From: Trichoplax adhaerens
Lineage: Eukaryota > Animalia > Placozoa
Assembly: GCF_000150275.1 (NCBI RefSeq)
Contig: NW_002060959.1
Location: forward strand, 1,175,283 to 1,239,282
Direction of reading: 5' to 3'
Length of the DNA: 64,000 bases
The notes below the pieces were generated by a model. That model was given only the letters and a program-made list of their open reading frames with translations, was not told where the DNA came from and did not search any database. Numbering within the stretch: the stretch's first letter is position 1; each line of letters starts with the position of its first letter. The position numbers and the translations under genes are program-made. Positions 1-46,169 of the stretch are shown one piece after another.

Positions 1-636
1 TAATAAAGACGACAGTGTTCGCGTTACTGCTGTTCCTCGTGTACGAATTAAAATCGCTGACAGGTACTATAGCATAAATTGCATCTTGATGTAGTGCATT
101 AAATAGATGATCACCTGTAAATGGTGTAATAACCTTTGACAGAATTGCTGAAGAAGAAAGGAAACACGAAGAAGTGGTAGATAACGTATTAGCATTGGAA
201 TCTGCCAGTAGCGTTGATAATACAAAAGTAAAGATTAACGATATTGAAGCTCAAGGTACGAGAACTTTGATTGTCATTTGTAAATTGAATTTATAGCTTT
301 AAATTCTCTGCATTAGTACAAAAACAAACCTGTGATAGCTATTCTTATTTTTTTAGATGTAACTCAATTAGTAACGAATAAAGATCTCGACTCTGATCAA
401 GATGTTATTCGGTTCGTTAATATAATCACAATTAATTAAAAGATGTTACTCTACATATCTGCAAATTTTCGTAAACATTGTGCAAGTGGTAATTAATACT
501 GCAGTTGAAGTGGTGACATAGTCTGTAAGTTAGATCGGCCAAATTAATTTAATTTTTTCTCTATCCTCAGCAAATCCGTGAAAAAGAATACCAAACCTAA
601 ACGTAATTAAACTATTTTCCTTGTAATTACTTTAAC
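1..636 (+). pseudogene. Truncated duplicate of internal exons of the HAUS8-like gene (copy of 8166-8801)
   Basis: 1-636 aligns to 8166-8801 at a constant offset of 8165, with about 4 substitutions seen by eye (near 13, 21, 117, 628). Identity stops inside an intron after 'ctttaac' at 636. Confidence 0.9.
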
Positions 637-1226
637 CAAGAAACACATCTGACGTATATACACATGTTACATACACAGAGACAGTGGAACAAACAGAACA
701 ACACGACGATGGTGGTGTTGTTAGAGAACCGATCATGGACATACACGAGCCGAACCATAGACACCTAACAACATACCCATATAAAGAATTACGCATCAAA
801 GAATTTGATTCATATACATCCAATGATATATATATGGGTTATATGCAAATTCAGGCTTTTCATGCGAATATACGAGCATTCAAGACCGCCACTAAAAGTA
901 AAAAGGACGTACTTAAATATAAACGAGAAAAGAAAAAGAAGAAAGAAATACAAGAACTACTTGATCATTATAATATCATATTAACATATGAATCGATGGA
1001 TTCTGCTAGAACTATTGTACAGGACGCTGAAGCTGGTTTAGAAACCTTGCAGACTAGTACAACTTATGATTTAAAAACTATAATGTCTAGTATTCTATCA
1101 CGATTTCAGAATCGGTTCGATCGAGAATTGCATCAAACCAAATTATTACGCTGGTTAAGCGTATTTGGTAAGTCGAAACATCAAAGAGACAATGACCGTA
1201 TACTTTCGTTTATTAAAAAACTGTAA
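636..1226 (+). CDS. ORF-A: C-terminal fragment (~196 aa) of an unknown protein with a basic NLS-like run (KYKREKKKKK)
   Basis: The frame of ORF 684..1226 stays open back to 636 (PRNTSDVYTHVTYTETV...). The preceding TAA at 633-635 lies in host-derived sequence. No family recognised. Confidence 0.6.
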   Translation, partial: PRNTSDVYTHVTYTETVEQTEQHDDGGVVREPIMDIHEPNHRHLTTYPYKELRIKEFDSYTSNDIYMGYMQIQAFHANIRAFKTATKSKKDVLKYKREKKKKKEIQELLDHYNIILTYESMDSARTIVQDAEAGLETLQTSTTYDLKTIMSSILSRFQNRFDRELHQTKLLRWLSVFGKSKHQRDNDRILSFIKKL

Positions 1227-1869
1227 CGTATTACATGTTCTTATATATGTTCCAATAAAAGTTGTTGTCAATGACATCATGTCGTGCAATGGTTGTTTCA
1301 TATGCATGCTTACATATAGGCAAGACGTTGCGTACGTCTATGATGTTATAATCACCACTAACAATTGTGAACGTAGATAGATTATCTGGGATAGAAAACG
1401 AGTATTGTTGATGTAACACATCAGCCAATTGCAAACACATAAAGCATTTATCTGATGTTATAAGATCTTTACTAATGAACGGAAATTGTTCAGAGGAATA
1501 TTGATGTAGATCACGGACATTAGATGTAAAGAAATACGGCATACTACTAAATTTAGGTAACGCAACCATACCATAACTAACTAGCGTACAATCATCACAT
1601 TGCGGTTTCATGTTGTCTATTGTCATAGCCAGTTCTACTTCATGTGCCCGGAGTTGTATGTGTAATTTATCTGCTATATATTTCATACCATTTTCATCTG
1701 GTTTCAGAAATATAATGTCTTCTTGCGTTATATTTAAACCACTGTTATTTATTAATGTTTTCAGGATTTCCGTACGTTCGCTCTTCAAACTCATCCCACC
1801 ATTTAAGCCATAATCTTTATCGATCGATAACAGCAATAGTGTCTGTACTATTCTACTCTTCTGTTCTAC
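637..1869. mobile_element. Foreign, virus-like intronless insert at a duplication junction (candidate endogenous viral element fragment)
   Basis: The segment is fully coding: two convergent ORFs, stops 4 bp apart, no introns, both open to the insert edges. Each has an AATAAA inside the opposite ORF (+ ~1254, - ~1210-1215). It is flanked by two truncated host genes. Viral origin is inferred from architecture only. Confidence 0.5.
1231..1869 (-). CDS. ORF-B: C-terminal fragment (~212 aa) of an unknown protein with CxxC pairs (CDDC, CFMC), in frame with the last CFAP46 exon
   Basis: ORF 1231..1836 extends upstream without a stop (VEQKSRIVQTL...) into CFAP46-like IKFLLELA. No family recognised. 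Confidence 0.6.
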   Translation of the reverse strand, partial: VEQKSRIVQTLLLLSIDKDYGLNGGMSLKSERTEILKTLINNSGLNITQEDIIFLKPDENGMKYIADKLHIQLRAHEVELAMTIDNMKPQCDDCTLVSYGMVALPKFSSMPYFFTSNVRDLHQYSSEQFPFISKDLITSDKCFMCLQLADVLHQQYSFSIPDNLSTFTIVSGDYNIIDVRNVLPICKHAYETTIARHDVIDNNFYWNIYKNM

Positions 1870-4525
1870 TGCAAGTTCTAGCAGAAATTTGATTCTAGGA
1901 GTGAAGATATAATCAAGATAAAAATTTTAAAATTTGGTTGGATGCGAGTATCGTGCGAATATTGTATGAATTTTAGGGATAGAATAATTTTTTAACGATA
2001 GAAGAACATTTCAATAAATCTTACTGTTCTTCTTGGGTCAGTGAACCTCCAGGGGTTACACTCTTTCGCCCACTTGGTGCACTACTGTCTTCTTCGCGTA
2101 AGATTCGCTTTATTAATCTGCCTAAATCAATATCAACTTGTTCCACCGGTGTCTTCCCTGCTTGTGGTACTTCTTTACCTTCAAATGTGCTGTTTATTAA
2201 AATCAATTATTTGATTACTTACGAAAGTGTTTGCAGAAACGATACTATTTACTTGCTTTTAAGAGTTATTATTAACGCTGTATCAAATAACTTTTGAATG
2301 AGGTGGAATAATAGTTAATATCTCATTTTACTCACAGTCTTAATCTCTTCATACGATATAGTATATTTAAATTTATAGCGAGTTTTGCATCTTTTACTAA
2401 TTTTTGAGGATCAGCCAATCTGTGCACAATCTGTAAAATCCAATTTAGAATAAAATAAGGCGGCGATGTAAGATTGAGTCGAATATTATTACATGAGAGT
2501 TTAAAAATTTAGGTTATACAGGATATATACCCGTATGTACAGAATTATAATGTTTTATGCGCGAAATGGTTATGAGTGTGTTTAAATGACATTAAAGTTG
2601 ATAATTCTTAAGCATGTGCTGTATATGCAAAAATAACCTGTAACTCGAAAATATCCTTAAATGTATCCGGAATATGCGATTTCGTGAAACTAGCAGCAAC
2701 TTGAGCAACATTGATCGCATCTTCTCTTCTTCCAGCATCAATGTGGCATTCAATTAAAGCACTGTTTTATAAGAAAGACGTAGAGTTTTTAATTTCTTTT
2801 TCTGGATATAGATATTTTGTACTATTAGCTGTTGATGACTTTATGGTGTTGTAGATCTTACATCAGAAGTTTAGTTCTCCATTCGTAATCTTTATCATCT
2901 ATATCATCTAAAGCTTTGACTATGTTATGTAGAGATTTTGATAAATGGTGTCTGTGGCCAGCTGTTAAAAATGGCCGACAAAACTTCCAATAAATAACTG
3001 AAGCGTTATAAACCAGAAAATGATACCTAAAAGAATATTTTAAAAAGCGATAAATAATAATTAGAATAAAAGGACAATATAGAAATGTTGACGCAATAGA
3101 ATAATATTGACCTAGTAGTCTTTCTAGCAAAATTGATTGCCCTAGTAATATACGATACTGCAACTTCCAAATTTTCCTTTAAGAGAATAAAAATTTCGTA
3201 TTATTATCTGTAGAAGATCAGCAATTTAATATATATAGCGAACGTAAATAGACAGTTGAGTTAAAATCAGAAATAAAAAGATTTACTAAATTAGTGTTTA
3301 CAGTGTCTTTCTTGGATACTGGCGCATTAAGCTGAGCTTGGCATAAATATCCCCTTCCAAGAAATTGGTCTTCGGGTGGAGATTTCCTGAAGAACATTTC
3401 CAAGCAGTCCTTGGCTAACGCTCGATAGCCTCTCTAGTATAAGCAGTTGAAGAAAGCTGTTATGACTTAATGCAAAATAGAAATTATCATGCGAATTGGT
3501 CATGATGTAAATACTATAATTTTCTGTACTTCAATCCCTTATATGGCAAATTAATCGTTTATCACTTAGTGATTAAATCTTCTTTATAGCATTTACTAGA
3601 CTAGTTTGCAAGCCTTGCATCCTTAGTATCCACTTAAATCGGTTATTATACAGTTTCTAATGCTAGTGTCTTGTCGATATAATGAATAACGATCGATAAT
3701 AATGTATATATGTAATGTTATGTGTCACTAATTACGATATAGGTATACGCGTATATGCAAGTAGAAGTAATTAGGACATATACAGTATCTCATATCATCC
3801 ATTATGGTGTATAATACTACATTGGAATATAGTAGTTCAGTTTTATGAAGATGCAGCACTGTAGCCTAATAAGGTATTATAGAGAGTAATACCTGTTTAC
3901 GTACAATGGATAGAAAACGTGTATTTATTGTATAGCTTCGTAGTTGGCTGCTACTCAGGCGTGAATTACTTACTTCATCGTTGTTAAAACTTAAGTTCAT
4001 AAAATTATACATCAAGTTGCATGTAGTCACCTTTTTTTGCGTAAGTGCACAACCACTATACGAATTAATTAATCATGAGACTATATATTGATATCTCGTA
4101 CTACAGCTATTTACATGACGAAATAATTGCCCTTCACGAGTGATTGAATTACTTTTTATAGTAGTCCATTATTGACATAGTTTGCAACTCTCTGATTAAT
4201 AGTATCAATTCAACATGAAAATTTTACAATTTAATCTCGACAGAAATAATCATCTATATAGCTGATTATTCTATAGATAAATTACGTACTTTAATCCATC
4301 ATTTTAAAAGGCTAGAGGTATTTCGTTTAAGCAAAGACGATATAATCTGTTACTGACCTCGAAAGCGACTTCCGCAGTTAAGACATACCAACTTGCTTGG
4401 ATAGCGTCCACAGAGTCATCGCGCACTTCGACACCATATTTCAGCAATTGGTAGACTTCATTTAAGAGTACTTTATCGTTTTCTTGATTAAGAGCGCCCA
4501 ATATAATTCGAATTTTATTATCCAT
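1870..4525 (-). CDS. CFAP46: Cilia- and flagella-associated protein 46 (TTC40), N-terminal ~300 aa only, 3'-truncated
   Basis: Spliced exons encode DQFLGRGYLCQAQLNAP, RAINFARK, YHFLVYNASVIYWKFCRPFL...HHLSKSL, EWRTKLLM, LIECHIDAGRREDA and EEQIKFLLELA, colinear with the CFAP46 N-terminus. Similarity stops at ~1870. Confidence 0.88.
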
Positions 4526-4999
4526 CGCTTGGCTACTATAATAGTTTAATTTATTTTGATTGAATCCTGTTCAAGATGATCACTTTGGACTTGGATATAC
4601 CCAATAATAATCACAAGGTGACCATTACAAATTGCCTTTCCCTCTAAATTGAGATGATAGTTTAATACTTGATATTGGCTATACCAATAAAATTGAGCTG
4701 CAATCAGATTATACTTGCAGATGGATTTATATCTCGATATATAGATGGATTTGCTTCCCAAAATGTTAGTCGTTTAGCCTCTTGACGAATAAAGTTCTAG
4801 TCAAGTCATATTGAATAAATTGCATAAGCTACGCTATAGAAGTGTCAACATCCATTTCTTACATAATTTTGTTGTCGAGTGATTTTTCTATGTCATTCTA
4901 TTTAATGCGATTACGTGTTTAAGTAAGTATATTACATGTCGTCGATGTGTTTTGTGCAGTCTATTTATGCCATGAAAGCATTCGATGGTTGACAAGTCA

Positions 5000-5013
5000 G
5001 TTGGCATGGCGAC
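5000..5013. promoter_or_regulatory. RFX X-box upstream of CFAP46
   Basis: GTTGGCATGGCGAC closely matches GTTGCCATGGCAAC, with X-box-like sites also near 5064 and 5125. This fits a ciliary gene. Confidence 0.55.
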
Positions 5014-5544
5014 AAGATTGAAATTACTGATCATGCGCATCGATTGAAAAGTGCATCTAATCAGTTGGCCTGGCAAATCCTAAACGCTTTAAACATGCAA
5101 AATATATGTCACCTACGGCGATTGATTCCTAGTGACATACATACAACTCATGCCAGGTCATAGTGACATCATTTCGTACGCAACTCACAGTACCAGTATA
5201 CGATACATTCACTCAGTCATCGTTTTACGTTCGTATATCGTGTATGAGAACTACTAAGAAGAAGGAAAGTCTCAGTCTTTCTTTTAGTAATCCCCTTTGT
5301 CGTAGACATTGACTACTATAGATTACTACTGTAGTAATTTCTAGAACTCCATGTCCCCGGGATAAGAATCGTGCAGTTTTTCGCAAATTAGTCTCTCTGC
5401 CCTAGTATCATTGTTACTGTGTATGGATGAGCCATTAAGAATCGCTTGCAAAACTTATGTCATGATTACCATAGCCAGAGCAGTACTGTCACTAGCAAGT
5501 GAATCACGATGGGTGACATTATTTTTGTGGAGACAGTAGTCACA

Positions 5545-5630
5545 ATGTACAGTACTGTACAGTACAGCACAGTAAAGTACTGTACCACATTGCACTGTAC
5601 ACTGTAATAGACTGCTCTCATACTGTAGAC
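5545..5630. repeat. TACAG/CTGTA self-complementary low-complexity array in the CFAP46/HAUS8 divergent promoter
   Basis: tgtacagtactgtacagtacagcacagtaaagtactgtacc... Confidence 0.75.
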
Positions 5631-5653
5631 AGTTACACTCGCAGTATGACTCA

Positions 5654-5669
5654 CCCGCCAAAGTTCGAA
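5654..5669 (+). promoter_or_regulatory. E2F site plus CHR-like element upstream of the HAUS8-like ATG
   Basis: CCCGCCAAA (TTTGGCGGG on minus) is followed by TTCGAA, ending about 20 bp before the ATG at 5691. Confidence 0.45.
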
Positions 5670-5690
5670 TCGCTGTTGCCATGAGAAAAA

Positions 5691-8600
5691 ATGGCTGATC
5701 AAGCTCGGAAGAAACAATTATATCGCCCTGCTGTTCTACATCAGCATATACCCAGCAGCCCAACAAGGTAACGCATGAAGACTGCAGTAATATCATGGAT
5801 TCATTGATCCCTTTGGTTAAAAGAGAATTTTTTTCTTTTTATTTCAATTTCAATGTATAGGAAAACGTTAAGCCAAGGCTATTTGATCGCTCAGATCAGG
5901 TTGGAATGGACTGTATACGAGTGTATACAACAACGACTAGATTACTTACAGCTATCGATTAATCATAATTATTACTAAACGATTGACCACGTTATAACTT
6001 ATTATTGACTCTAATACAACCAAAATTGTATTATATACTCAGTCTTTTCCATACTTGTAGCTCGATAAATTAGACAATTACTATCATCATCCATTTTCAT
6101 GATCGATTATGTTGTTGATTTACACGTATACAGTAATGGCGACAATGCTTTCCCAGAAGATCAGAATAAAACGGAGACGAAGCGGTCCTTATTTCAATCT
6201 GTTAATACGAGGTAACTTATGCAGTGATTTAATAGTTATTGAATGGATGATGTTCTATGTAGTGGATGGCCACAATGACTTTAAAGTGGATGCAAAGTAA
6301 TAATAATGTAGAACGACACCCTTGCAGATAATGGACACTAGGCTTAATTTGTGTCTATCACTGAAGTTCACTTTTAGACGTAGAATTTATTCTATAACCG
6401 ATTATAAAGAAGCAGCTGATTAGGATTATCATTGTAAGGTAGTAGTTTGTTAGTCGTAGATTAGCTTAGTAGCCTGATGACGCTCAAATATTGCGATTTA
6501 GTACTGTGTTAACTGTAAATTATACATTAAACTTCAATGCCTTCTGGTAGTTTTTTAGTTGTAGACTAGTCTACTAGTCTAATGATATTGACAAATATTT
6601 ACGTATTGCGATTTGATCTTACATCGTATAGGTAGTGCCATTAAGCTTGAATGTCATGCTGTAGCTTGTTAATTATGGACTAGCCAAATAGTCTGATGGC
6701 ATTCACATATTGCGATTTGATCGCATGGACTATATGCAATCAATGTAGTAATTATGCATTTATCATGAGATCATAGATATCATATAGTAGTTTATTAGTT
6801 GTAGATTGTCTTCATAGTCTGATCGCTATGACGATTCGATCATACGTAGTATATAAAGTGCCATGATTATGGATAATATTAAAGGTCATGTAGCAGTTTA
6901 TTAATTGTTGACTAGTTTGATACTTTGATCACATTCACGTATGCGATTTCATCAAATGTAGTATACGTACAGTATATGGTGCCACGATCATACATTTGTC
7001 TTAAACGATATGTAGTGGTTTGTTAGTTGCAAACTAGCTTACTAATCAGATGTCATTCAAGCTCTGGGATAGGATTATAATTTGTACAGTATAGATCATC
7101 ACAATCCTATTAACTATTATATATGCTAGGTAAGACTTATTCAATAGATAAAATAATTTCCAACATAATTTGATAGGCCTGGCTATCTTCCGCTATATTG
7201 GAATGTAATTTTAGTAATTAGTGCTATCTTAAATACTATCATACAATGTCAGTCATTTCGTATAACTGGCCGTAATAGTGATTCTTATCTTAATGTAATA
7301 AAGGTCAGCGTAGAGTACTGTCGATATATAAATCTAAATAACAAGGATTTGATATTGCTGTAATAATTAACAATTTAAAAGCTCATATACAATCTTAAAA
7401 GTTATGAGCATGCACTACAGCAATTATTCATATATCATGCTACATACCATTCTCATGCTTGTTCATAGTGTACAGTACATATGAACAACGACAATGTACT
7501 GTTGACCTCATACAATTTTTAATAATTCGAACTTGTTATTAACTCATAACAAACTTAATTAGATAAATATAGACTTCTAATATCACTTGGCTTACACGCA
7601 TAGTTTACCAATTTTCTTCGCGTTTCTTTATGAATTACTTAGCGTTCAACCGATAGTAAAGGGAAATGATAATTATCAAGACGATGTCTCCCTTTTTTCT
7701 GATGAAGAAGAAAGTCAACAAGATCCAAAGGACCTTACTGTCATTGAAGGAACAGCACTATCTAAAGATGCAATGAGATCAAATATACAGAGTAACATAA
7801 TGGCAAATCAAAATGCAAATGATGAAAGATATCGCGATACCAGTAGCGATGATGCCAATTTTTCTAAGCAAACAAGAGCTGCATTGTCATCGTTAATGGT
7901 ACTTCATTTAATTGTGGCATGGCCATATTTATCGTATATTAGCTTAATATTATCAACTCGTAGTTGGATGCTGCATCTTAATAAACACTTGATTGACTTT
8001 CAATCAGGCAAATTCTCCAACGCCTAAAGTTGGCAACTCTCCTGTTCTAATTGTTGATGCCCTTGGTCGTACTGCCGATCCACAGGCAACGGAAGTTGCC
8101 GTTGTAACTACCGTAGCGAAATCAGCTGCTAAGGTTGTCTGCCATTCTCCTTCTGAAAAAAATTCTAATAAAGACGATAGTGTTCACGTTACTGCTGTTC
8201 CTCGTGTACGAATTAAAATCGCTGACAGGTACTATAGCATAAATTGCATCTTGATGTAGTGCATTAAATAGATGATCACCTATAAATGGTGTAATAACCT
8301 TTGACAGAATTGCTGAAGAAGAAAGGAAACACGAAGAAGTGGTAGATAACGTATTAGCATTGGAATCTGCCAGTAGCGTTGATAATACAAAAGTAAAGAT
8401 TAACGATATTGAAGCTCAAGGTACGAGAACTTTGATTGTCATTTGTAAATTGAATTTATAGCTTTAAATTCTCTGCATTAGTACAAAAACAAACCTGTGA
8501 TAGCTATTCTTATTTTTTTAGATGTAACTCAATTAGTAACGAATAAAGATCTCGACTCTGATCAAGATGTTATTCGGTTCGTTAATATAATCACAATTAA

Positions 8601-10831
8601 TTAAAAGATGTTACTCTACATATCTGCAAATTTTCGTAAACATTGTGCAAGTGGTAATTAATACTGCAGTTGAAGTGGTGACATAGTCTGTAAGTTAGAT
8701 CGGCCAAATTAATTTAATTTTTTCTCTATCCTCAGCAAATCCGTGAAAAAGAATACCAAACCTAAACGTAATTAAACTATTTTCCTTGTAATAACTTTAA
8801 CTTTTAATAATACCGTACTTCAATTGTTTGCTCTCATACTGTTATATTAACAAAATAGCCCGATATGTTGCTTCCCGTTATCTGAGCGGAATATCTACGA
8901 ATAGAACAAAAACAACTACGGTAAATTATTCACTTTAGTTGGTGTCCTTCACCATTCTGTCTTAATTATTAAAGTAACTTTACTCTAGGTTGGTAAATCT
9001 CATTCGAAAGCTGAAAAGGGACCTATGATTGGTCGCCATGATCTACATGCTACTAGGACTACTCCAAAAACTTCAAATACCGGTATTACAGCAAAATCTT
9101 TTTCGCGACTAGGAAAGAAGCAAGGTACATACTCATGTCAATTAAAGTGTTCAGAATTCCCATATAAATGTTATCCTCGTATCAATTTTTTATTCCAGAT
9201 GTCATGGCTTCTACCCCTAGCGATCGACAACAGGCCAGTAAACTGCGAACTGTCAGAACACCGCAAGACTTCAGTATTAGGAGGAGCCGCAATACAAAAA
9301 CTCCAATTGCTTCTGCCAGTAAGCGAAAACCACCCATAAAGGTCTTGCCTACGGATAAAAAGGAAACAGCTAATACCACAGTTGACAACAAAGGTAATAA
9401 CTTTATATCTGCCGCATTCCATAAATTTACGTTTGTCTGGTTAATAACTATTTACGTTTGCTTTATAGCGGAAACGAGAATACAAATGGAAAAGGTAATC
9501 TTGCAAGCCAGACTCTGTTATGCTCGCCTTGATAATTAAAAAGTGTGCGTACTTTTTTCCTATCGTGTTGATTAATAGAAGAAAGGATCTATTGAAGTGA
9601 CACAATCTGAACTGGACTTAGTTTACGCTCGTTTGATGCAGTGGGTATTTGCCTATCAAAAGGTAATTTTCATTTTTTGTGTATTATGCCATGCGTGTTC
9701 CGTGTTATTGATAGGGTTTTGTATTATAACTTTAACACTGAGCTCTATGTGTATAGCTGAAGCACACAGTCAATACCCAAGAAAAAGAAGCCATGGTAAG
9801 ATTCATAATTCAGAACTTTCTTAGCTATGATTTACTACACCATTGAACATATACAAGGCGCACATATATTTTTAACAACATTATTTATCTTTTTTCTCTA
9901 TAGAACCAAATTTTTTCCATGTGGAAGTATCTTCATCAGCAAAATAGGAAACTGACTCAATTAAAGTTAGAACTTCAACTAGCCAAGCATACGTCTCTAC
10001 TAGATGATGTCCTAGACATGCAGGTATTAATGTGATGTAAAGGTGGACGTTGTAACATACGAAAGTAACGCGAAAGTAATAGTCGAATAAAGGATTTGTG
10101 TTACTTATAAGACGTTTATTACGTACTTCACAGAAATCTGAACTTCAAGTTATTGGAGATCTATTACCGAGAGTTAAGTCGGATTATAGCAATCTTGCGA
10201 AAGGCCTAGATGCTGTCAGCCATGTTTTACGTACAAAAGGCATACTATACATGGACGATCATGGTAGTGATTGCCTGAGTCATTTGATACTGGTAAAGCA
10301 TAATAGCAATTCTGATCAGAGCAATTACGTTACTACTTTCAGATGAAGTAATAAGTGCGTTAGGAGAAAGTGAAGAATTATTGGGAGAAATTATAAGTAT
10401 TACCCGACATAATCAAGAAAATGTATGTGTAAAATCACTAACGACATATACTATTAGCTAGAGAATTAATTTTTTTATAGTCAAAGTAACTCGTTAAATC
10501 AATTTTTTCCTTATCGAATGCAGGTAACAGCAGTTTCCCAGTCAATGTGTGGTTTAGCTGATAAAGCAACTGTCGAAGGCAAAGAGTTGCATAGGTAACT
10601 TATCTGTAATATTCTGAATAATTGTGTCGTATAATTACGAATTTACAGTACATACATATATAATACCTTTATTAATAGAGTTCAATCTTATCAAATAGGT
10701 GTGAGGAGTTACTTGGTGCGCTTTCTACTCTAGTAGTCCAGGAAAGCAGTTTAAGAGTGCAGGAAATTGAAGAAAGTCGAGCTGATTCTAACGAAATTGA
10801 TAATCTATCTTTGCATTCCATGCATTTTTGA
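5691..10831 (+). CDS. HAUS8: HAUS augmin-like complex subunit 8 (HICE1) homolog with a long low-complexity N-terminal extension; multi-exon
   Basis: Phase-consistent exons run from MADQARKKQL (5691-5767) through 5861-5899 and 7643 onward. Motifs: YVASRYL, ELDLVYARLMQW, LDDVLDMQ, YSNLAKGLDAVSHVL, LVVQESSL. Stop TGA at 10829-10831. Confidence 0.72.
6439..7070. repeat. Degenerate tandem repeat (~6 units of ~105-125 bp) in HAUS8 intron 2
   Basis: The core gtagtagttt(a/g)ttagttgtagactag...tagtctgat...attgcgatttgatc recurs near 6439, 6547, 6661, 6785, 6890 and 7012. Confidence 0.65.
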
Positions 10832-12828: not shown

Positions 12829-15800
12829 TTACTGATCCTGAGTAATTAACAAGTCAGCCATTGATTCATTACCGGTAATTTGAAGATTCTATTCATGCGA
12901 TAACAAAGCCAAAAAGATAAAATATATAATTAGACTCCCTAAATTATCGTATTATCTATAATAACAAATCGTAGAAACATGTTATATAAAATAATCTAGA
13001 TCAATTAAAGTGGGCACAATCTATAAATTACATCCATGTTAAAAAATTAACTATTACACTAGTCTGTGTTACATAAGCAAAATCTTATAGTATACATCGC
13101 CCATACTAGCTTATAATTTGACAATTTCTGAATTAACAGTAAATGCCTATGGCTTAAAACATTTTTGCTCACCTTTTCATTTGCTAAATGAAGTAAGCAA
13201 ACGAAACAGATAGGCACCGAAAGATTTTTTGCCGTTGAACCTGATATCTTTTTAGGGATATTGTGATAAACTTCTTTAAATGACTGTTCAGTAGTAAGTT
13301 TTTCTAATAACTTCGTCTCCTGTTGTGATATTTCTGGATTAATGTTCTCATTGAAGTTTTCTTTATTATCCTGTTGAAATAAAACCAAAACAACTTAATG
13401 TCATTAACGCCCCTCCAACAAAGCTTAGGTTAGCTTAGAAAGATGATTATTTCTGTGATTTAATAGATACCGCATCTTCGGTCGGTTTACAAAGAGCATC
13501 CCACATTGCAGTTTTTAATTTTCTTACATCCACTTTTTTCGCCGTTTTCGCATAATTTATTTCAATTTTATTTACCTGAAAATTGATTGATGATATCGTA
13601 TTATTAACTATCCATCTTAATTAATCAACGCACACTATATAAGCATAACGGCATATATCTGAAATTACAGTCAGTTACCTTCCTCGGTTCTGTAACTAAT
13701 TGTGTATCGTCTAACATGTCTAAATTAAAACCACTTTGAGCCATATTCGATTGAACACTTTGAAGTTGATCTGCTTCAAAGTTATCTCTATCGTCATCGT
13801 CATCATCATCGTAGTCGACCTATTTTTAGAAGTAATGTTAATTATTATAAGCAATTCAGAACCGGATAGCTACATCATACAGGTATAGGTAGTCGTAAAT
13901 CCTTCATAAATAAAAAATTGTTCTTACCGCGACATTGGGACAGTAATTTTGGCGATCATTTGGATTATTATAATCATACCAATTGCTATCATCTTCTATT
14001 GTATCGCTTTGATTTCCTTGATGCCACTTTACCTGTCAATCAAAAAGTAAAATTTATTTTCTATTATAAAAACATTAGCAAAATAAATTTTAAAGTTTTT
14101 TCATTTCGTGTATAACAATATCGTACCATCATTTTTGGCTTTGTGAATAATAAAAACAGTGTATCTGCTTCGTAATGCAGGTCCTCCGGTAGCGTAGTCT
14201 GCTCTGATGAACGACCCTTAAGGGTAGCTTTTGACAACGTTATAGCACTCTGTAACATATTCAGTACAGTCAATGTCAAAAAGTCTTTTCGATTTACTTT
14301 TTAGAATAATCAGATGATATATAATAATTACAACCTTTCCTTTCGAGAAACATTTTTCAAAATCGACATCAGCGGAGAAATCAACTTTGAATGGCACTCG
14401 CTTTTGACTTGTTGGTCTACTATGCTTATCGGTAGATTTTAATTCACGAGAAATTGGCTGCAATTTCCAATGTTTAGGACCAGCCCAGGTAGCCAAGACG
14501 GCATTATTGAAGTAAGAGTACTCTGATAGTTTCAATGCAGACTCTAGAAATAATTTCGGATCCTTCGTTGGGCGAAACATTGCCCCACTACAAAGATGAT
14601 AAACCATCATATCAAAATTACTAGATAATTTCTTATTCTTGCTGGTATCAGTAGTGAACATACATAGGATTATTTTCATCCAAATGTGCGGCTTCTTGAT
14701 CATGAGTAAAATCTATCTGAGCTCGAACATCATCAATTGTTTTATTCGGAATATCGTTGCCATCATCGTCATCGTCAGAATCGATATAATCATAATGTTG
14801 CAGACTGTTATCTACATTTAAAAGAATAAAAAACACATTTTAAAAAGACTGTATACGGATGAATGAATCTTAATCGCAAATGAATATTAAGGTTAAATTG
14901 TATACGCAACCGTACCGGATGGATTAGCCGTAAAGGAGTGATTCATAATTTGATTAGAAGTTACAGCATTCTGTTGATAGAAAGAGATATGGAATTAACC
15001 ACTGATAACATATTCCATAAGAAAAACAACAGTCTACAAAAGTAGTACCTGATTTGAATCGTGAGTCGCTTTCGAAGATAAATAATCGATCTTAGGACAT
15101 ATGCTTAAATCTTCCGTACATAAGCACCTTAAACATCCTAGTTTACGTGAAATTTTAATTGATGATATTGTCACTATTTATTCAATAGCGCGTAATGCAT
15201 TAGTCACAAATATATGATACGATAATAATTACAATATTCTTACCCTTCCATTCGCTGATATCAACAGTCATCTCATCAGAAACTTCTTCTTTGTTTTCAT
15301 CTTTAAAATAGCACCTAGTCGTGTTGGCTATAACGTTTGAATTAATGCTAATTTCATCCATACTGTCGTCATTAAAAAACAGCGTATGTAAGAGTAGTCC
15401 CGCAGTCCCAGATTCGTCAAAGGCTGCGCTATTCTTTTGGAATAGCGGGTCAACCTGTAAAGAATTTAAACATAGTAAGAATTAAGTTATATGAAAAGAA
15501 TGAAAATAAACTTTCTCAAAGAGATGCTTATAATATTGTAGTAACTTACTTCAAACTGTAAATCGATGTGTTCCGTATTTAAAGAAGCAACATTTTCTTC
15601 GATAGTCTGAACTTTTCGGGCAAGATTCTATTACACAATTTGTATGGTAGTTTTTTGTTACTCAGATGCATAAAAAAATATCCTGGCTAAAAATAAGCGA
15701 GATAACTATTTAAATAGTAACTATTTCTTGATAACCAGATATACGTGCATTAATGGAATTCTTATTGCATATACTGTATGACAAGTACAGTAAGCGGCAG

Positions 15801-18295: not shown

Positions 18296-18770
18296 CGATC
18301 TGATTTGTTTACACGGGCTAACGCATTGCGCAGTAGAACGTTGTTGTTTTTCATTCTTTTGACCTGTACAAGTGTACAGTACAGTACAGTACTGTACAGT
18401 ACAGTAGTCATCCGAACCCTGGCGCTTTGTACTGTACACTGTACACTGTACTGTACTGTACAGTACAGTGTACAGTACAGTTAATGTCATAATCGTGGAT
18501 CTGATTTGTTTACACGGGCTAACACATTGCGCAGTAGAGCGTTGTTGTTTTTCAGTCTTTTGACCTGTACAGTGTACAGTACAGTAGTCATCCGAACCTT
18601 GGCGCTTTGTACTGTACACTGTACACTGTACATGTCATAATGGTGGATCTGATTTGTTTACACGGCTAACGAATTGCGCAGTAGAACCTTGTTGTTTTTC
18701 AGTCTTTTGACCTGTACTGTAGAGTGTACAGTCATCCGAACCCTCACGCTTTGTACTGTACACGGTACAG
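18296..18770. repeat. Three direct copies of a ~150-200 bp unit in the NCAPH/LETM1 divergent promoter
   Basis: gatctgatttgtttacacgg...ttgcgcagtaga...ttttgacctgtac...gtcatccgaacc...gctttgtactgtacac starts at ~18297, ~18498 and ~18646. Confidence 0.9.
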
Positions 18771-18924
18771 GATATACAGTACAGTACTGTAGGTGGAGTC
18801 TGCGTACTGTTGTACTGTGCAACACTGTACTTTGCACGGCATGCGCACACGCAGTACAGTCGATGAAGGGACACTGGTCAAAACGCAATATTGAGTCATT
18901 TTATATCATCTTTGATGGTCATGC

Positions 18925-19240
18925 TTGTACTGTACTGTTCTGTCTGTACACGTACAGTACTGTACTGTACTGTACAGTACATTCTAATACGATACTGTAC
19001 TGTACAGTGTACAGTGTGAGCCAGTTCTCTAGTACAGTACAGTACTGTACTGTACACTACAGTACACACAGTGTACAGTATGGTCACTACAGTACACTGT
19101 ACTGTACTGTAACCCATGCTAATCGCACGACTTTCTTCTATACTCTCACGTGCTGACTCATAAGCAATTAAGCATGCCTGACTCACGGACTATACAGTAT
19201 ACTGTACTGTACAGTACAGTATGGTACATACAAAGTACAG
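18925..19240. repeat. TACAG/CTGTA/TGTACA low-complexity array
   Basis: Dense tgtactgtac and tacagtacag blocks in both orientations. These generate the spurious C/T/V/Y-rich ORFs in the track. Confidence 0.85.
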
Positions 19241-19569: not shown

Positions 19570-24631
<5,062 letters not shown>

Positions 24632-26402: not shown

Positions 26403-28700
26403 AGAGTAGTGACTACGCTATAAAATCTTTTTTGGGCAAATCGGTGAACAAAGGCAAAATAAAACTGGCAAGTGGCAACTGATCAGTGTGCTGTGCCGCC
26501 GCATCGATTTTGGTATTGCTAAAAAGGAGAGAAAGAATTCTCTGGTTCATCGAAAGTTTACGGTAAGGTAAATCACTTTGCTTTCATTTCAACTTTAGGT
26601 TGAAATTGTAATATCAATCGCGTATAGCTTGCTGGCACATAAAAATACTTGAAGGTTGTCGGCTATCTTACGAGGGACGATAAAGTGTAGAAGCGTTCCT
26701 TTTTTTTTGGAAAACCCATATTCCAGTGGTATATTTTAATTAACCAACTGTACACTTATGAACTCGTACGAATTATATTGTTGTACCATATACCCGTGGA
26801 GATAAATACAATTAATTCAATTTCCTAATAGCTAAAATAGGTTTTTCTCAAGTGATTGCATTCCATGACGATCAACTGTTGGATATTGATAGGACCAAAG
26901 TCATGATTTTTATATTGTGATTACATCACCTCTTGTTGTATTTTTACGTATACGGGTATGCGTATTGAATGAAGGGTTAAGCAATTCATGCAACGGCTGC
27001 ACGCTAATCGCTCGAAATTTGTACTGGACGAGTGTACAAATTGCAGTTTACACACACTATACTGTAGAATGGAGTTAAAATAGGCATCGGCTACTAAAAA
27101 TGAACTTGACTCTGAATGCCCGTTTTACCAACTGATAGTCTTATCCAGTAAGCTGTTGTTTGTTAACAACAATTATATTACAATTATAATTTGAGTGGAT
27201 ATTTTTCGTATTATGAAGTTGTCAACATGACACTATATTCTGTAATAATGAAGTTTCCCTTACCAACAAACCGACCGTAATCCTCGCGCACTGATCGTCT
27301 CTTCTTGGATTTTCTACCAGGACGTACTACATTATCGACGTTGTGTGAGAAATGTTATGATACTGTACTCCATGTTTGTCTAACATAATTATATAATCGA
27401 GCATTTCTTCTATGGCTGTAAATTTGACTTGCTACGTAGACCGCATATAAGATGAGCTTGGCTAAAAATATACCCTTACGACAGCGAAAATTGGAGTAAT
27501 TAACCTAATGATTACTAGTTAATCAATGATCAATCATGACATTCACTACTGAATGATCCAAGCCACCCGTCATATCTTTGCCAAGGTATATTTATCGTGC
27601 GTGCTCTTAATCTCATGGTCTCATGACAGTGTACTTAAAAAGCGTTGAATAGAGTAAGTAGCAGTTTCAACAAACTGAACTACTGTAAAAGTAAATACTC
27701 TTACTCTCCAGTAGTCGTCATATGTTTGTTGGCACCATTTTGTTATCCATCCCATCAAGTCAACCCACTTGTACACTTTACAGCGTACGTGAAATATTTC
27801 CATCCGCTGGAAAATTGGAGTACTGAGTATGCAATGTAGTCCATGTTTTTTACTGCATACGCTATGATTCCCTAATGGAGTCACGCTTCAGTATACAGTA
27901 CTGTGCAGTAGCATTGCAAATATTTCTGGTTTTTTTTCCCCTTACAGCACTGGCTCAATATTTCGATCCGCTAGACTAGTGTACTTAGTGCCGAAGGCAA
28001 ATCTTGACAACACTGCTAGAAAAGCTATTGAATAGCTTTTTCTTTTACCTCTATGGCCTAAATTGAAAAGTTATTGACTATAAAACACGACAACTGCTGC
28101 ATTACTCTAACTCAGTCCCTGCTTTCGCCATGGCGATTTTAGCACCTGCACAACTCGTGCGCAGTGGATAATCGCCCTAAAAGGGAGCTACAGTATTTAT
28201 CCAGTGATCTACAGTGCTGTACTCTAGACTTGTAGGACTGTAGTGCATGACAGTATCGTGCCTCAAACAATACGTTACAGTCAATAGAAAGAAAAGGAAG
28301 TTGGCGACCGATGGTATGCTAACCACGTGTCAGCAATAACCAACCGTACAGTACTGTACAGTCGCCACTGGTCAACCTTTCGTCTTGGATCATCGTCTTG
28401 CCATCTGTCAGTACTAGTCCAAATTTGTCTCTCATCACTAAATCAACTCGGATTAAGTGCGGCTACTATCGAAGGCTATATAAACAGACATTGATTTTTC
28501 GACTGTAGACCATTGAAACTTGTATAACTTGTGTAACGAATGACTGTTGTTTTTCCTCATTTATTAATAAAATCATTTTTTTGCTGTGGATTACAGGACT
28601 TAAGTTGAAAGATTGCTTTTTAAATGAAGCGATAACTGGTCAAGACCAGCGCAGTGTCGCAATAATAGGGCCAAATTGAAAGTGTCAATCGCAATACAAG

Positions 28701-30437
28701 ATGGACGCCAATGATAGTAGTGCAACTTTACTGCCAACGACGATAACACATGGCGATAACAACCAACATACGATTAGCGCGGACGATCTGGAAAATGCTA
28801 CGAAAGCTGTCTACATCGCAGTCATAATTCCTATATCCTTGTTCCTCAATTTAACTTTAATTCGTGCTCACTATCGTCTAAAATCAGTGGAAGTATCAGT
28901 ATTTGGACAGTTTACAATAAATCTAATAATGGCTTGCCTTGTACCCACGGTATTACTATTGCCATTTTTATTCGCTGTCCAAATGAACGCCGGTTCATGG
29001 CCCCTTCAGTGGATAGGTTGTAGGTATGCCACATTTATCCTGAACGTAAGTAATCATGCAATCTATATAACGCTGGCGTTCATGCATATGGATCGCTACT
29101 TGATTTATTCATTTCCTGATCAGTACCACCTAAGAATGCCTCGAGATCGTGGAGTATTTCTGTGTATTGTAAGTTGGGTAGTTAGCATAGCTTTTACTAT
29201 ACCTTATGCGTTGACCAATTTCGACTGGGCTCATATTACTCCCTCAAAGAACTTGTCAACAAATGCTACCAATTCATCATTATTTTGCAATCAGACTACT
29301 ACTAAAAGTTGCCATGCCAAGCGCTTAGTGTGTGTCCCTTGGCCTGAAGGTCAAAGTAATTATTTAACATTTGCTATAATTCAAGGACTAATCTTGTACG
29401 GGTTACCTTTGATACTTTTCATTTTCTGTCAAGTTAAAATCGTTCGACATTCTAAAAAGAAATTGAAAAAATCTCAAGGTCGCGGTCATCTCAATTCGTT
29501 TACAATTCGTCGTCCTTCAAGTCGTCCTAAATTAGAGTCGCCAGTAACAGTGGGCAGGTCGTTTCATGTCTTGACTACTATCGAAGGGTCGTATTTCATA
29601 TTCTGCTTACCTTACGTCATTATAAGCTTTATTGGCAATTGGATAGCGCCAATACGCGGTCTTCATTCCATTGATGGCTTTATCATTCTGTTAAATAGCA
29701 CCTTTTACATCATTACACCTTTATGTATTATTGCGCGCGATCGTTTAATGAGACGTAGATTTAAGCGTGTCCATAAATGCTTATTTGAGCACATGCAATA
29801 CAATAAAGCAGTTAAATGGCATCATCATCACAGTCATCATCATCATCATCAGACACAACATCATACTGAAGCGGTTACTTCCGAGACTCCTCTACAAGCA
29901 ATGCCAGCGCCAAGTACGGTATATCCTGAAGTAAACCTTACCCAATTAACATCAGTCAATTTGAACCCAGCAGATGAGACACCTGATATTGCCACTACTG
30001 GAGCGATTATTGTACAAGGCGACGACATTTGTGAGGTTAACCATAGAGATATTCAAGAAACGATTACCGAAAAAAATCTTCCCACAGCTTCAACAAGTAA
30101 ACAAACATCTGGTCGTGGATTTTTTAGTACGATCTCGCCATTAAAAAACTACCTTTCTTTCCGTTCTAATGAACGACGTGCTCATGCCGCAGCAGAAGGT
30201 AACGACACTAACAAAGATGCTACTTATATACCTAAAGGATCAATGTTTTTCCATGGACTTCCACCTCCGAAACTTTTTGGTGGTTCAGTCGGTATTCGAT
30301 TGCAAGTTGACTCTGCTAGCGTAAAGACTGTAGAGCGTTGGAGAACTACACAAAAACAAACTGCTGCCGATGGTGACGATTATAGTATTGCTAGTAGTCA
30401 GCACTCGGAAGCACCTCATTCAGCACAACATGTCTAA
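28701..30437 (+). CDS. Rhodopsin-like (class A) orphan GPCR; intronless CDS, long C-tail with a His-rich run
   Basis: Seven hydrophobic segments, N-terminal N-glycosylation sequons, ECL1 WPL..GC, DRY (MDRYLIY), TM4 W...P, TM5 YGLP, TM6 FCLPY. A 5'-UTR intron acceptor lies near 28597. Confidence 0.92.
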   Translation: MDANDSSATLLPTTITHGDNNQHTISADDLENATKAVYIAVIIPISLFLNLTLIRAHYRLKSVEVSVFGQFTINLIMACLVPTVLLLPFLFAVQMNAGSWPLQWIGCRYATFILNVSNHAIYITLAFMHMDRYLIYSFPDQYHLRMPRDRGVFLCIVSWVVSIAFTIPYALTNFDWAHITPSKNLSTNATNSSLFCNQTTTKSCHAKRLVCVPWPEGQSNYLTFAIIQGLILYGLPLILFIFCQVKIVRHSKKKLKKSQGRGHLNSFTIRRPSSRPKLESPVTVGRSFHVLTTIEGSYFIFCLPYVIISFIGNWIAPIRGLHSIDGFIILLNSTFYIITPLCIIARDRLMRRRFKRVHKCLFEHMQYNKAVKWHHHHSHHHHHQTQHHTEAVTSETPLQAMPAPSTVYPEVNLTQLTSVNLNPADETPDIATTGAIIVQGDDICEVNHRDIQETITEKNLPTASTSKQTSGRGFFSTISPLKNYLSFRSNERRAHAAAEGNDTNKDATYIPKGSMFFHGLPPPKLFGGSVGIRLQVDSASVKTVERWRTTQKQTAADGDDYSIASSQHSEAPHSAQHV

Positions 30438-37575: not shown

Positions 37576-38076
37576 TGATGTTGGACAAACATTTTCTGTA
37601 GGACCGTTTTATTTTAATGGTATGACTAATCGCAAATTTAAGTTTAAAAAATTATCGTTTAATAATTATATATAATCAACTTGCACCATAGCTACATTAT
37701 TATCGGTTATTGGATTAAATTAATGTTTAATATTCATTTCTGCAAGACTGTAATCACTGATTTCATGCCTTTTAAAATCAATGGTGGCTCGAATGAGTAG
37801 CCGTTTGGATGGTAATGAAAAAAGCTCAAGGGAGCTAGAAATGGTATCGCTCGCTGTAAAGTACGGTCAGTTCCTAGTATTCTATATTCGATTATAGGCC
37901 GGCATTTCCCACTGTATTACAGGTAATTTTATATTATTAACTAGACAGCTCAAATCGGGATTGGTCAAGATCAGTATTCAAAAATATAGCTATTTACAGC
38001 ACATAAACAGGCATGGTTTTTGTAGGATACGGTACTAATGGTTGTTTAGATGTAGTTATAGATCTTCTGTTACTAT

Positions 38077-39062
38077 GGAGGACGTTGAACAAGCTCGAGA
38101 TTGATTTTGTTTCGTGTTTTCTTCTTTATATGTATTTTGGTATAGACATAGAAATAATTTTGCTTTCTTCCCCATTAGATAACTATTGCTAATTAAGGGC
38201 ACCTGGAGACAAGGGCACCTGGAGAACGTTGAATAAGCTCGAGATTGATTTTATTTCGTATTTTCTTCTTTATATGCATTTTGGTATAGATGTTATGTTG
38301 ACATAGAAATAATTTTGCTTTCTCCCCCACTAGATAACTATTGTTAATTAAGGGCACCTGGAGACAAGGGTACCTGGAGAACGTTGAATAAGCTCGAGAT
38401 TGATTTTGTTTCGTGTTTTCTTCTTTATATGCATTTTGGTAAATACATGTAACTAATTTTGCATTCTTTCCCACTAGATAACTATTGCTAATTAAGGGTA
38501 CCTGGAGAACGTTGAATAGCTCGAGATTGATTTTATTTCTTCTTTTCTTCTTTATATGCATTTTGGTATAGACATGGAACTAATTTTGCATTCTTTCCCA
38601 CTAGATAACTATTGCTAATTAAGGGTACCTGGAGAACGTTGAATAAGCTCGAGATTGATTTTACTTCGCATTTTCTTCTTTATATGCATTTTGGTATAGA
38701 CATGGAACTAATTTTGCATTCTTTCCCACTAGATAACTATTATTAATTAATAAGGGGTACCTGGAGAACGTTGAATAAGCTCGAGATTGATTTTATTTCG
38801 CGGTTTTCTTCTTTATATGTATTTTAGTATAGACATGGAACTAATTTTACATTCTTTCCCACTGGATAACTATTGCTAATTAATAAGGGTACCTGGAGAA
38901 CGTTGAATAAGCTCGAGATTGATTTTACTTCGTTTTTTCTTCTTCATATGTATTTTGGTATAGACATGGAACTAATTTTGCATTCTTTCCTACTGGATTA
39001 CTATTTCAAATGAAGGGTATATGAAGAATGTTAAATAAGCTGGAGATTGATTTTATTTCGCA
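38077..39062. repeat. Tandem minisatellite, ~8 units of ~127-155 bp
   Basis: Unit ggagaacgttgaataagctcgagattgatttt...actagataactattgctaattaagggtacct starts at ~38077, 38221, 38376, 38503, 38631, 38763, 38895 and 39023. Confidence 0.95.
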
Positions 39063-39699
39063 TTTTCAGCAAGAAGAGAGAGAGTACACTAACATTCTTC
39101 CAGGCCATTGCTTCTATAGGGTCTGTATGGAAATAGCAATTTAATACAGATGATGCAGTAGGGTCGCATGGATTCGATGACGTCATAAAAGAAGGTGACA
39201 GGAAATGAAACCAATAGACTATACTGTACATCGATCGTACTGCAGTCACTGTCATGATGACTGACGCGTTTCTACGCAACGCTAGAAGGGGAGGTTGCAT
39301 GATGGAAAGTTGCGAAATGATTAAGCGACCATAAAATGTCCAAGGTCGGAAGGATTTGATTCTAATCGAATTGAAACTATTTCTGGACTAAATGATCAAT
39401 AATTTTCTTGCGATACACTCCATGTTGCAATAGGAAAGTTATGATGGAGTTGCGGTTGGGTTGACTAGCCCAGACGTATCGGCATTGACTTAGGTAGGTG
39501 CCTCGATTGATGGAGGTGGTCGTTGAGAGTGTAATGATAGTGTACAACACCAATGATCACATGAATTTGGCGAGGGAAGAGAAGAATTTTATTTACAAGA
39601 GAAAGGAGAAATAACGGCATTCGAATGTCTGTCGAGTGCAGAGAGAATGGAAAATGTTCTAGCGATGAAGATATGATAAAAGGATAACTGGAAGAGGTA

Positions 39700-44630: not shown

Positions 44631-46169
44631 CTATAACAAGATATATTTGTTATAAGTAATAGTAAATGTAGTCAATGTTAATGGACCAATTAATTACTAT
44701 ACAGCTACAGCATGGTGTGTAATTTTGAATGATGCGAAGGTGTGAACAATATAAATCCTTTTATCTACCGAGATGACAGTAAATATAATAGGACAAAGTA
44801 AAATCAAGAAATTCCCTGTGATTATGATCTGGTAGTAATATAATCGTTTATTAACCGGTTGTTGTGTGATTATGTGGATTGTAAAGTCTTTAGGAGACTT
44901 CAATTATTTTACCATACACACTATGTCCTATATGGATAACGATAAAGTTCATAACCATCAATTATTATCTATTAATTGTCTGCCTTAAAATTACCTTATC
45001 TAAGATTTAACAATATGATTTCTAAGAATGAACTAATCTACAGTACAATTAAGGTTACGATTTAGCAGTTATATATTGGCTTAGTAATTATTTGTATGCC
45101 TTAGATAAAATGCAATAAAGGTTATTAACTCTTCATATTTATGACTTGGGTACGAAAATAAATAAGATTGTATCGCAGTAGTAGTAATCTATTCTAGCAT
45201 TCTGTTAATACGTATATGTATTCACTGTCAGTTGGTGTTAGATAATTAGACGATAATCAATTTAACATTATTATAGTTCTAAATCAGACACAAGTAGAAC
45301 CATAGCAAAATAACTCTTAGCTCTAATCAGTGTTAAAAATATTTATTATAGCATGATTAATTTACAACTATAAACGATGATGTCGAAAATTCGATATCAT
45401 TCTTAAGTTAAAATTCTTCTTTTCATACTATACAGCCACAGATATCGTACTGTACTAATTATTGCTTTGTCTAGAATCATGTTAATATCATACTAGTAGT
45501 AAGACTGTAGTTACGCAAAATAAGATAACTTAAGTATTTAATGACAAAGCTATGATAATTATGATATAAGTATATGAACTTAAAAATAGTTTTAATCAAG
45601 ATAAATAATTTAAGTTATAAATTAAATAAAAATTAACATTTCTTTACCAAAAATAAACCCAAGACTTTAAGAAAAAATTGAATCTATATCTTCTAGGCGA
45701 TAATAGTGTCGTTTTCCCTTTTCAGTGACTACTAGATATAATGTTGCATTATGCCGCTATACTAATCGTTACTATTCTTTAAGATATTCCTTAGACAAGT
45801 CTTATTATTTGAGAAATACGATATAGCAGTAAATTAGGATTTATTGCACTAATACGGTTGCTGCTACTAAGAACGCAGTCAGCACTGATATGTACGTCAA
45901 TTTTAATTATTCATTGCTATATACATAATCTTTAGCAGGGTTTTAAATAAATAGAGAACGTTAACCATTGTAGCTTTCACATAAAGCGTAGATCTCAAAA
46001 CTAGCGATTGTATTAATTACTGTTTAATTCATTCATTTCCGCCTTGCGTTACAATCGAAATTTTTTCTTCTTGTTTTGTAGTTTGGGAATTGCAAATTAT
46101 ACAACTTTTATTTTCTTCCTGAGGTATCTAGTACCTAGCGTTGGTAACAATCTTTTTGCAAACTATTAA

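What the first reader, a model, noticed from the sequence alone, without database searches (positions are those of the whole stretch)
1231..4525. CFAP46 N-terminus fused in frame to foreign ORF-B, a candidate new chimeric gene
Seen: the exon ending ...GSLTQEE-CA|gtaa (~2024) splices to the acceptor at 1895-96, giving QIKFLLELA, which matches CFAP46 EEKMLLLFELA. It then continues with no stop as VEQKSRIVQTLLLLSIDKDYG...YKNM* (1231), with a minus-strand AATAAA at ~1210-1215. The CFAP46 promoter and its X-boxes are intact. Inference: a roughly 500-aa host-foreign fusion protein could be expressed in ciliated cells. An in-frame join has a 1-in-3 chance probability, so function is unproven.
Basis: partly seen in the sequence, partly recalled or inferred. 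Interest (0 to 1): 0.8.

Follow-up and report, generated by a model that had tools for sequence, protein, structure and literature searches.

The report
Duplication traps orphan DNA, twin fusions
In the simple animal Trichoplax, a recent local DNA duplication trapped a 1.2-kb piece of unknown, likely foreign origin, so the front halves of a cilia gene and its neighbour each run in frame into it and appear in spliced RNA, while intact copies of both genes remain and the fusions are likely by-products without a job yet.

Summary
The CFAP46 N-terminus (314 aa) runs in frame into a 211-aa orphan frame. The spliced model equals Trichoplax adhaerens TRIADDRAFT_60792. It is no assembly artefact: 4 of 4 DNA runs laid show the junction, plus a second path holding the native CFAP46 continuation. 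The window shows why: 1-636 repeats at 8166-8801 (632/636). A 6.9-kb segment (CFAP46 5' half, shared promoter, 5' half of neighbour gene Y) was duplicated in tandem, with a unique 1230-bp insert (637-1866) at the join. The insert carries the 3' ends of two convergent, intron-less genes. Gene Y's truncated copy splices in frame into the second one, so one event made two fusion genes. One of 4 candidate RNA runs shows both spliced forms. The donor is unknown: no relative was found in any library searched. Function is doubtful: the event is young, intact parents remain, and 3 of 4 DNA runs carry a stop at codon 469. Verdict: a real pair of young chimeric genes of a known kind, with an unexplained donor.

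The parts
4358..4525 (-). CFAP46 copy, exon 1 from the ATG (RNA contig reaches at least 4700)
2025..3433 (-). CFAP46 copy, exons 2-7 (3433-3302, 3176-3112, 3026-2862, 2761-2638, 2430-2336, 2189-2025)
   Evidence: RNA joints; model equals P0012; Pfam PF25439 at residues 3-148; match to PDB 9ijj_A residues 11-260
1867..1894 (-). last host part of CFAP46 exon 8; left end of the duplicated segment
   Evidence: second path leaves at 1867 in 4 of 4 DNA runs
637..1866 (.). unique 1230-bp insert of unknown donor, GC 34%, no terminal repeats
   Evidence: 1290-bp unbranched contig 607-1896 in 4 of 4 DNA runs
1231..1866 (-). ORF-B: 211 codons, open from the break, fused directly to CFAP46; other genomes carry a stop at codon 469 of the fusion (position 1402)
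   Evidence: P0001 ends at 468 aa
637..1226 (+). ORF-A: 195 codons open from the break; entered through a cryptic acceptor at 678|679, in frame with gene Y
   Evidence: joint 602->679 in X17; frame check
1..636 (+). 3' end of the left copy of the duplicated segment: truncated gene Y (exons ..63, 143-255, 357-411, 571-602)
   Evidence: 632/636 identical to 8166-8801; joints
4526..5692 (.). head-to-head promoter region shared by CFAP46 and gene Y, inside the duplicated segment; X-box-like motif at 5000
   Evidence: promoter function inferred
5693..8801 (+). 5' part of intact gene Y (likely HAUS8-like, recalled); right end of the duplicated segment at 8801; native next exon starts at 8859
1209..1259 (.). 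overlapping 3' ends of the two insert frames (stops 4 bp apart); AATAAA on minus at 1214, ATTAAA at 1212 and AATAAA at 1254 on plus
   Evidence: use as poly(A) signals not shown

Best explanation
A 6.9-kb segment holding the 5' halves of CFAP46 and its head-to-head neighbour is present twice in tandem with a unique 1230-bp insert at the join, likely made by one recent repair or template-switch event that captured a piece of a gene-dense, likely non-host genome, and the two resulting in-frame fusion transcripts are likely neutral by-products. Shown: the repeat of 636 bp inside the window, both junctions, both native continuations, both reading frames and spliced RNA in one run. Inferred: the left copy extends about 6.3 kb beyond the window start and carries the intact CFAP46; the duplicated promoter drives both fusions; the insert holds the 3' ends of two convergent genes and so supplies stops and poly(A) signals for both truncated host genes. 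The predicted CFAP46 fusion keeps only the first 314 residues of a protein of about 2,600 aa (2,641 in PDB 9ijj_A). It would probably not build the C1d projection. It may be degraded or act as a weak competitor.
For: Window 1-636 = 8166-8801, offset 8165. 4 of 4 DNA runs from 4 studies show the insert contig plus native paths at 636 and 1867. Contig depths fit 2:1:1 in X1 (repeat 203 and 195, insert 106, unique 107 and 101) and roughly in X3 (88 and 68, 47, 43 and 38); the tool warns depth is no copy number. A published orthology table (PMC10580291, supplement 4) lists CFAP46 models 60790, 60791, 60792 in a row plus 62708 in T. adhaerens, 2 in Trichoplax H2, and 1 each in Hoilungia and the H23 placozoan; gene Y's group has 4, 4, 1 and 1. 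Young age: 4 differences in 636 bp between copies against about 1% SNP rate in these genomes (PMC6057997). Only 2 variable sites in the insert, one a K>E change in ORF-A and one a stop in ORF-B. Neither chimera model (60792, TrispH2_011606) appears in the co-expression module table, while TrispH2_005043 is in the H2 cilia module at 0.773.
Against: Both fusions are in frame (about 1 in 3 for the direct join; 3 of the first 5 AG sites in the insert are in frame) and the arrangement is kept in two lineages. In X17 the insert contig has depth 110 beside 153 for the shared CFAP46 exons, so the fusion RNAs are not rare there, though that figure pools both strands. Two variable sites cannot measure selection. 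Foreign origin has no positive hit, and the insert's GC and dinucleotide values lie inside the window's range.
Confidence: 0.65

Rival explanations
1. Same structure, but one or both fusions are translated and useful young genes: the CFAP46 TPR N-terminus would carry an orphan domain into cilia, or the gene Y N-terminus would carry ORF-A in dividing cells.
For: Both joins in frame and spliced; kept in two lineages; insert contig well covered in X17.
Against: Stop at codon 469 in 3 of 4 DNA runs and in the H2 protein record; the event is too young for open frames to imply selection; these lineages are clonal and share alleles by descent (PMC6057997); chimera models are missing from the co-expression modules.
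Confidence: 0.17
2. The insert is host DNA (the last exons of two convergent orphan Trichoplax genes) copied or moved here, and the donor site was lost or has diverged.
For: Host-like GC (34%) and codon-position GC; AATAAA-type signals on both strands; templated insertions from elsewhere in a genome are a described class (PMC7025897).
Against: No contig 85-99% alike was laid on 560-2260 in 4 DNA runs, and the insert contig is unbranched at single-copy depth; no protein relative among 1.84 billion representatives for ORF-B; two intron-less frames of about 200 codons with stops 4 bp apart are unlike the short-exon genes beside them, though the window does hold some long single exons.
Confidence: 0.12
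3. The unit exists as an unstable array or free circle, or the tandem order is two haplotypes stitched together by the assembler.
For: Short-read contigs cannot order the copies; depth ratios differ between runs (insert/unique 1.0-1.2 in X1 and X3, 0.58 in X8, 0.76 in X10); CFAP46 5' pieces also sit on small 7-9 kb scaffolds.
Against: The insert joins the right end of the segment to its left end, which needs a tandem or circular form whatever the phasing; the same junctions occur in runs from 2018 to 2025 and in two organism labels. A copy on one homolog only would explain the lower ratios.
Confidence: 0.06

Closest known systems
Chimeric genes at tandem-duplication junctions (Arabidopsis TDDOs, PMC7605254; Drosophila tandem duplications, PMC4069613, listing only)
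   Same: A truncated gene copy at the junction is transcribed and spliced into new sequence while intact parents remain at the edges.
   Different: The two broken genes face away from each other, so they cannot fuse with each other; a third piece of DNA with two convergent frames completes both, giving two fusions from one event.
'Cycle of templated insertion' (PMC7025897)
   Same: A host segment is re-replicated with an extra segment at the join.
   Different: There the template lies elsewhere in the same genome and gains a copy; here no second copy was seen in 4 DNA runs. That class was described in tumours, not as inherited variation.
Capture of extrachromosomal DNA at breaks (numts, filler DNA; PMC2567098 and PMC2686159, listings only) and endogenous viral elements (recalled)
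   Same: A short piece of outside DNA, cut inside genes at both ends, without terminal repeats.
   Different: No donor identified; flanked by a 6.9-kb duplication rather than a small target-site change.
CFAP46 / FAP46, C1d projection of the ciliary central apparatus (PMC11651342, listing and abstract start)
   Same: Residues 1-314 are the CFAP46 N-terminus.
   Different: Everything after residue 314 is unrelated; databases name the fusion CFAP46.

Membership tests
CFAP46 ortholog (full length) | N-terminal TPR region PF25439 | tested here: met
   E 1.5e-19, residues 3-148
CFAP46 ortholog (full length) | homology continues past the LLELA motif over about 2,000 more residues | tested here: not met
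   ORF-B scores -2.4 bits on a profile from 5 orthologs, below the best of 500 shuffles at 3.6; the native path exists separately
chimeric gene from tandem duplication | duplicated flank with breakpoints inside genes | tested here: met
chimeric gene from tandem duplication | intact parent genes retained | tested here: met
   native paths in 4 of 4 DNA runs; gene Y continues at 8859; the full CFAP46 frame lies outside the window and was not read
chimeric gene from tandem duplication | spliced transcript across the junction | tested here: met
   1 of 4 runs (X17); the crossing contig has 28 laid host letters plus 2 unlaid, just under the tool's 31-letter rule for bridging
chimeric gene from tandem duplication | translated and under purifying selection | not testable with these tools
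   no proteomics or population set; a nonsense allele exists
endogenous viral element / horizontally acquired DNA | homology to viral or microbial proteins | tested here: inconclusive
   no significant hit; models too poor for fold search
endogenous viral element / horizontally acquired DNA | compact intron-less genes and no host paralog | tested here: met
   suggestive only
DNA transposon insertion (Polinton, MULE, Helitron capture) | terminal repeats, short target-site duplication, multiple copies | tested here: not met
   ends are not inverted repeats and cut through open frames; single unbranched contig
RraA-like / HMG aldolase fold (ORF-B) | significant profile match | tested here: not met
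   455 of 2000 shuffles scored as well on a 13-sequence profile; hhalign probability 0.1%
HAUS8 / augmin subunit (gene Y) | family profile match | tested here: inconclusive
   single exons gave no Pfam or PDB hit; the name is recalled from motifs; one member of its orthogroup is in a cell-cycle module

The most novel reading that the evidence does not exclude
A fragment of an undescribed placozoan virus or symbiont, cut through two convergent genes, was captured in one duplication and completed two host genes at once. Both fusion proteins are made, so Trichoplax clones carry gene birth from foreign DNA caught in its first steps, with full-length and shortened alleles side by side.
Probability: 0.13. 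Interest if true: 0.8.

Novelty: new variant of a known kind. Interest (0 to 1): 0.48.

Why it matters
It is a well-resolved, very young case of gene birth in an early-branching animal: parents intact, breakpoints exact, RNA present, alleles differing. That makes translation and selection directly testable. The reciprocal layout (divergent gene pair completed by a convergent gene pair) yields two fusions from one event. The insert may be a trace of an unsampled virus or symbiont of placozoans. Practically, public records name this fusion 'CFAP46' in both Trichoplax genomes, which can mislead work on ciliary protein evolution.

Tried and rejected
Assembly error at 1867: rejected. CFAP46 destroyed by the insertion: rejected, native path present. 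ORF-B as diverged CFAP46, suggested by a forced MAFFT alignment: rejected. RNA editing at 894 (G in X17, A in X1 of the same sample): rejected, since DNA runs X8 and X10 also carry G. Homolog searches with no result: ORF-B in Pfam, PHROGs, NCBIfam, 5.8 billion proteins of 116-371 aa only, 1.84 billion representatives (20; this search also did not return the Trichoplax records themselves, so it can miss), ESM Atlas, viral, metagenome and GTDB contigs, phages, plasmids with the C-terminal 129 aa. ORF-A was searched among proteins of 318-2000 aa only, never at its own length or among the representatives, and in contigs. Weak leads not accepted: ORF-B to PDB 5ir2_A, E 0.058, tested as RraA-like and failed; ORF-A to PI3K p85 coiled coil, E 0.009, to Pth2, 18 bits against a cut-off of 126, and to retrotransposon gag clusters at 0.78-0.82. 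Single-sequence models had pLDDT 34 and 41, so fold searches say nothing. RNA runs X19 and X20 show no cover over ORF-B, though X19 covers CFAP46 exons 1-4; holes prove nothing. X16 is unspliced and looks like DNA (10). Bacterial promoter and terminator scan: at chance. No whole genome was held. No earlier scan notes. Papers: 'Trichoplax' + 'CFAP46' gave 0; searches listed nothing on this locus by title or abstract start. A proteome paper that I recall for T. adhaerens did not appear in one search.

Full report
Observation. The minus strand carries eight exons from the ATG at 4525 to the stop at 1231. RNA run X17 skips all 7 introns with GT..AG ends, including 2024-1895, and has no depth in most of the 924-bp first intron, so it is spliced RNA. 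Joining the exons at those joints gives 525 aa, identical to P0012, which is T. adhaerens TRIADDRAFT_60792. A 468-aa version is on record for Trichoplax sp. H2 under the name CFAP46. The N-terminus is CFAP46 (Pfam PF25439; PDB 9ijj_A, E 4e-55).

Where the host ends. I laid 4 of the 24 listed runs as DNA on 560-2260. All 4 give a 1290-bp contig over 607-1896 and two further contigs that share 30 letters with the window and then leave it, at 1867 and at 636. The path leaving at 1867 reads on as TCLEFDKIES. It scores +13 to +22 against the matching ten residues of 5 CFAP46 orthologs, where the window's path scores -10 to -14 (a sixth protein, P0009, lacked the anchor motif and was left out). So an intact CFAP46 continuation exists in the same runs, and the break is 1867|1866. 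ORF-B does not match a CFAP46 profile.

Why there are two versions. Window 1-636 recurs at 8166-8801 with 632 of 636 identities. The path leaving at 636 follows the window after 8801, and the RNA loose end at 602 maps to 8859, the next exon of the intact neighbour gene Y. The segment 1867-8801 (6935 bp: CFAP46 5' half, head-to-head promoter, gene Y 5' half) is therefore present twice, with 637-1866 between the copies. The left copy is inferred to start about 6.3 kb before the window. Contig depths fit two copies against one in X1 (203 and 195; insert 106; unique paths 107 and 101) and roughly in X3. In X8 and X10 (organism B) the insert is at 0.58 and 0.76 of the unique paths, which may mean one homolog only. 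The tool warns that depth is no copy number. Supplement 4 of PMC10580291 (rows seen; file cut when stored) agrees: CFAP46 has models 60790, 60791, 60792 and 62708 in T. adhaerens, 005043 and 011606 in H2, and one each in the two other placozoans; gene Y's group has 4, 4, 1 and 1 members, with H2 011605 and 011607 flanking 011606 by number. The duplication thus looks confined to Trichoplax.

The insert. It is 1230 bp, GC 34%, without terminal repeats. It holds two convergent frames, each open right up to its break: ORF-A 195 codons on plus and ORF-B 211 on minus, with stops 4 bp apart. None of 20,000 random sequences reached 190 codons. These are the 3' ends of two real genes cut from a compact source. 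No contig 85-99% alike was laid from the four runs, so no close second copy was seen. No relative was found in any protein, family or contig search, and three weak leads failed or stayed far below cut-off (see Tried and rejected). Composition does not separate it from the host. A viral or symbiont source is an inference from anatomy, not a hit.

A second chimera. In X17 the truncated gene Y exon ending at 602 splices to a cryptic acceptor at 679 (one contig, depth 96, 30 letters on the short side). This is in frame with ORF-A. One event thus produced two fusion genes whose 3' ends overlap in antisense. Gene Y resembles HAUS8 from recalled motifs. My exon-level searches did not confirm the name; one member of its orthogroup is in a cell-cycle module.

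Transcription. In X17, contig 12 (depth 153) ends 28 letters after the last splice, exactly at the break. Contig 11 (depth 110) begins with two unlaid letters, then runs 1894 to 679. Contigs give no strand, and depth 110 pools both fusions. This rests on 1 of 4 runs laid; X16 looks like DNA, and X19 and X20 do not show either fusion joint.

Function. The copies differ at 4 of 636 sites, below the roughly 1% SNP rate reported for these genomes; H1 and H2 share an allele at 80% of 30 phased loci and are clonal (PMC6057997, passages). Open frames and presence in both lineages therefore need no selection. The insert shows two variable sites: K>E in ORF-A (894) and a stop at codon 469 of the CFAP46 fusion (1402), seen in X3, X8 and X10 and matching the 468-aa H2 record. 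The letter combinations in organism A runs (X1, X3, X17) suggest both alleles are present there (inference). In supplement 3 of PMC10580291, H2 005043 is in the cilia module and T. adhaerens 60790 is in a module that the annotation sheet does not list; 60792 and 011606 are absent from the table. That is weak evidence, since many genes are in no module. I judge the fusions most likely neutral by-products, with a real but smaller chance of function.

Mechanism. The layout matches a tandem duplication with an inserted template at the join, called a cycle of templated insertion in PMC7025897 (passages). Junction chimeras with intact parents are described in PMC7605254 (passages). Whether it arose by template switching, by end-joining with captured DNA or by re-integration of a circle cannot be told without the donor. 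A transposon insertion is unlikely, as the ends cut through genes and the piece is single-copy.

Novelty. The class is known. The gene model is in databases but under the plain name CFAP46, and a full-text search for Trichoplax with CFAP46 returned 0 papers (subscription papers and bioRxiv supplements are not covered). New here are the chimeric nature, the reciprocal pair, the exact breakpoints, the nonsense allele and the orphan donor. Interest 0.48.

Noticed in passing
window 52470-54092, 58254-59892 and 60826-61572 (+): Three tandem copies of an intron-less methyltransferase-like frame (TPMT-like, recalled); the first two are 82.5% alike over 1.7 kb.
   Followed up: no
window 44827-47641 and 54265-57080: A second local duplication, 83-85% alike, including a coiled-coil frame at 46170-46988 on minus.
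   Followed up: no
window 38076-39067: Tandem array with units of about 130-150 bp.
   Followed up: no
window 18297-19056 and 5480-5640: Low-complexity TACAG/ACTGT repeats that create spurious open frames.
   Followed up: no
window 14218-14712 (-), 21218-22069 (+), 28680-30437 (+): Condensin subunit H exon (model 60794 is so named), a LETM1-like exon and a 585-codon single-exon GPCR-like frame (the last two names recalled).
   Followed up: no
P0011 (TRIADDRAFT_62708, 7.3-kb scaffold): A further CFAP46 5' model with V7 and H93 where the window has I7 and N93; probably the other allele or copy left unmerged.
   Followed up: partly
window 679-1894: The two fusion RNAs would overlap in antisense at their 3' ends and could form double-stranded RNA; strand and ends were not visible in contigs.
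   Followed up: no
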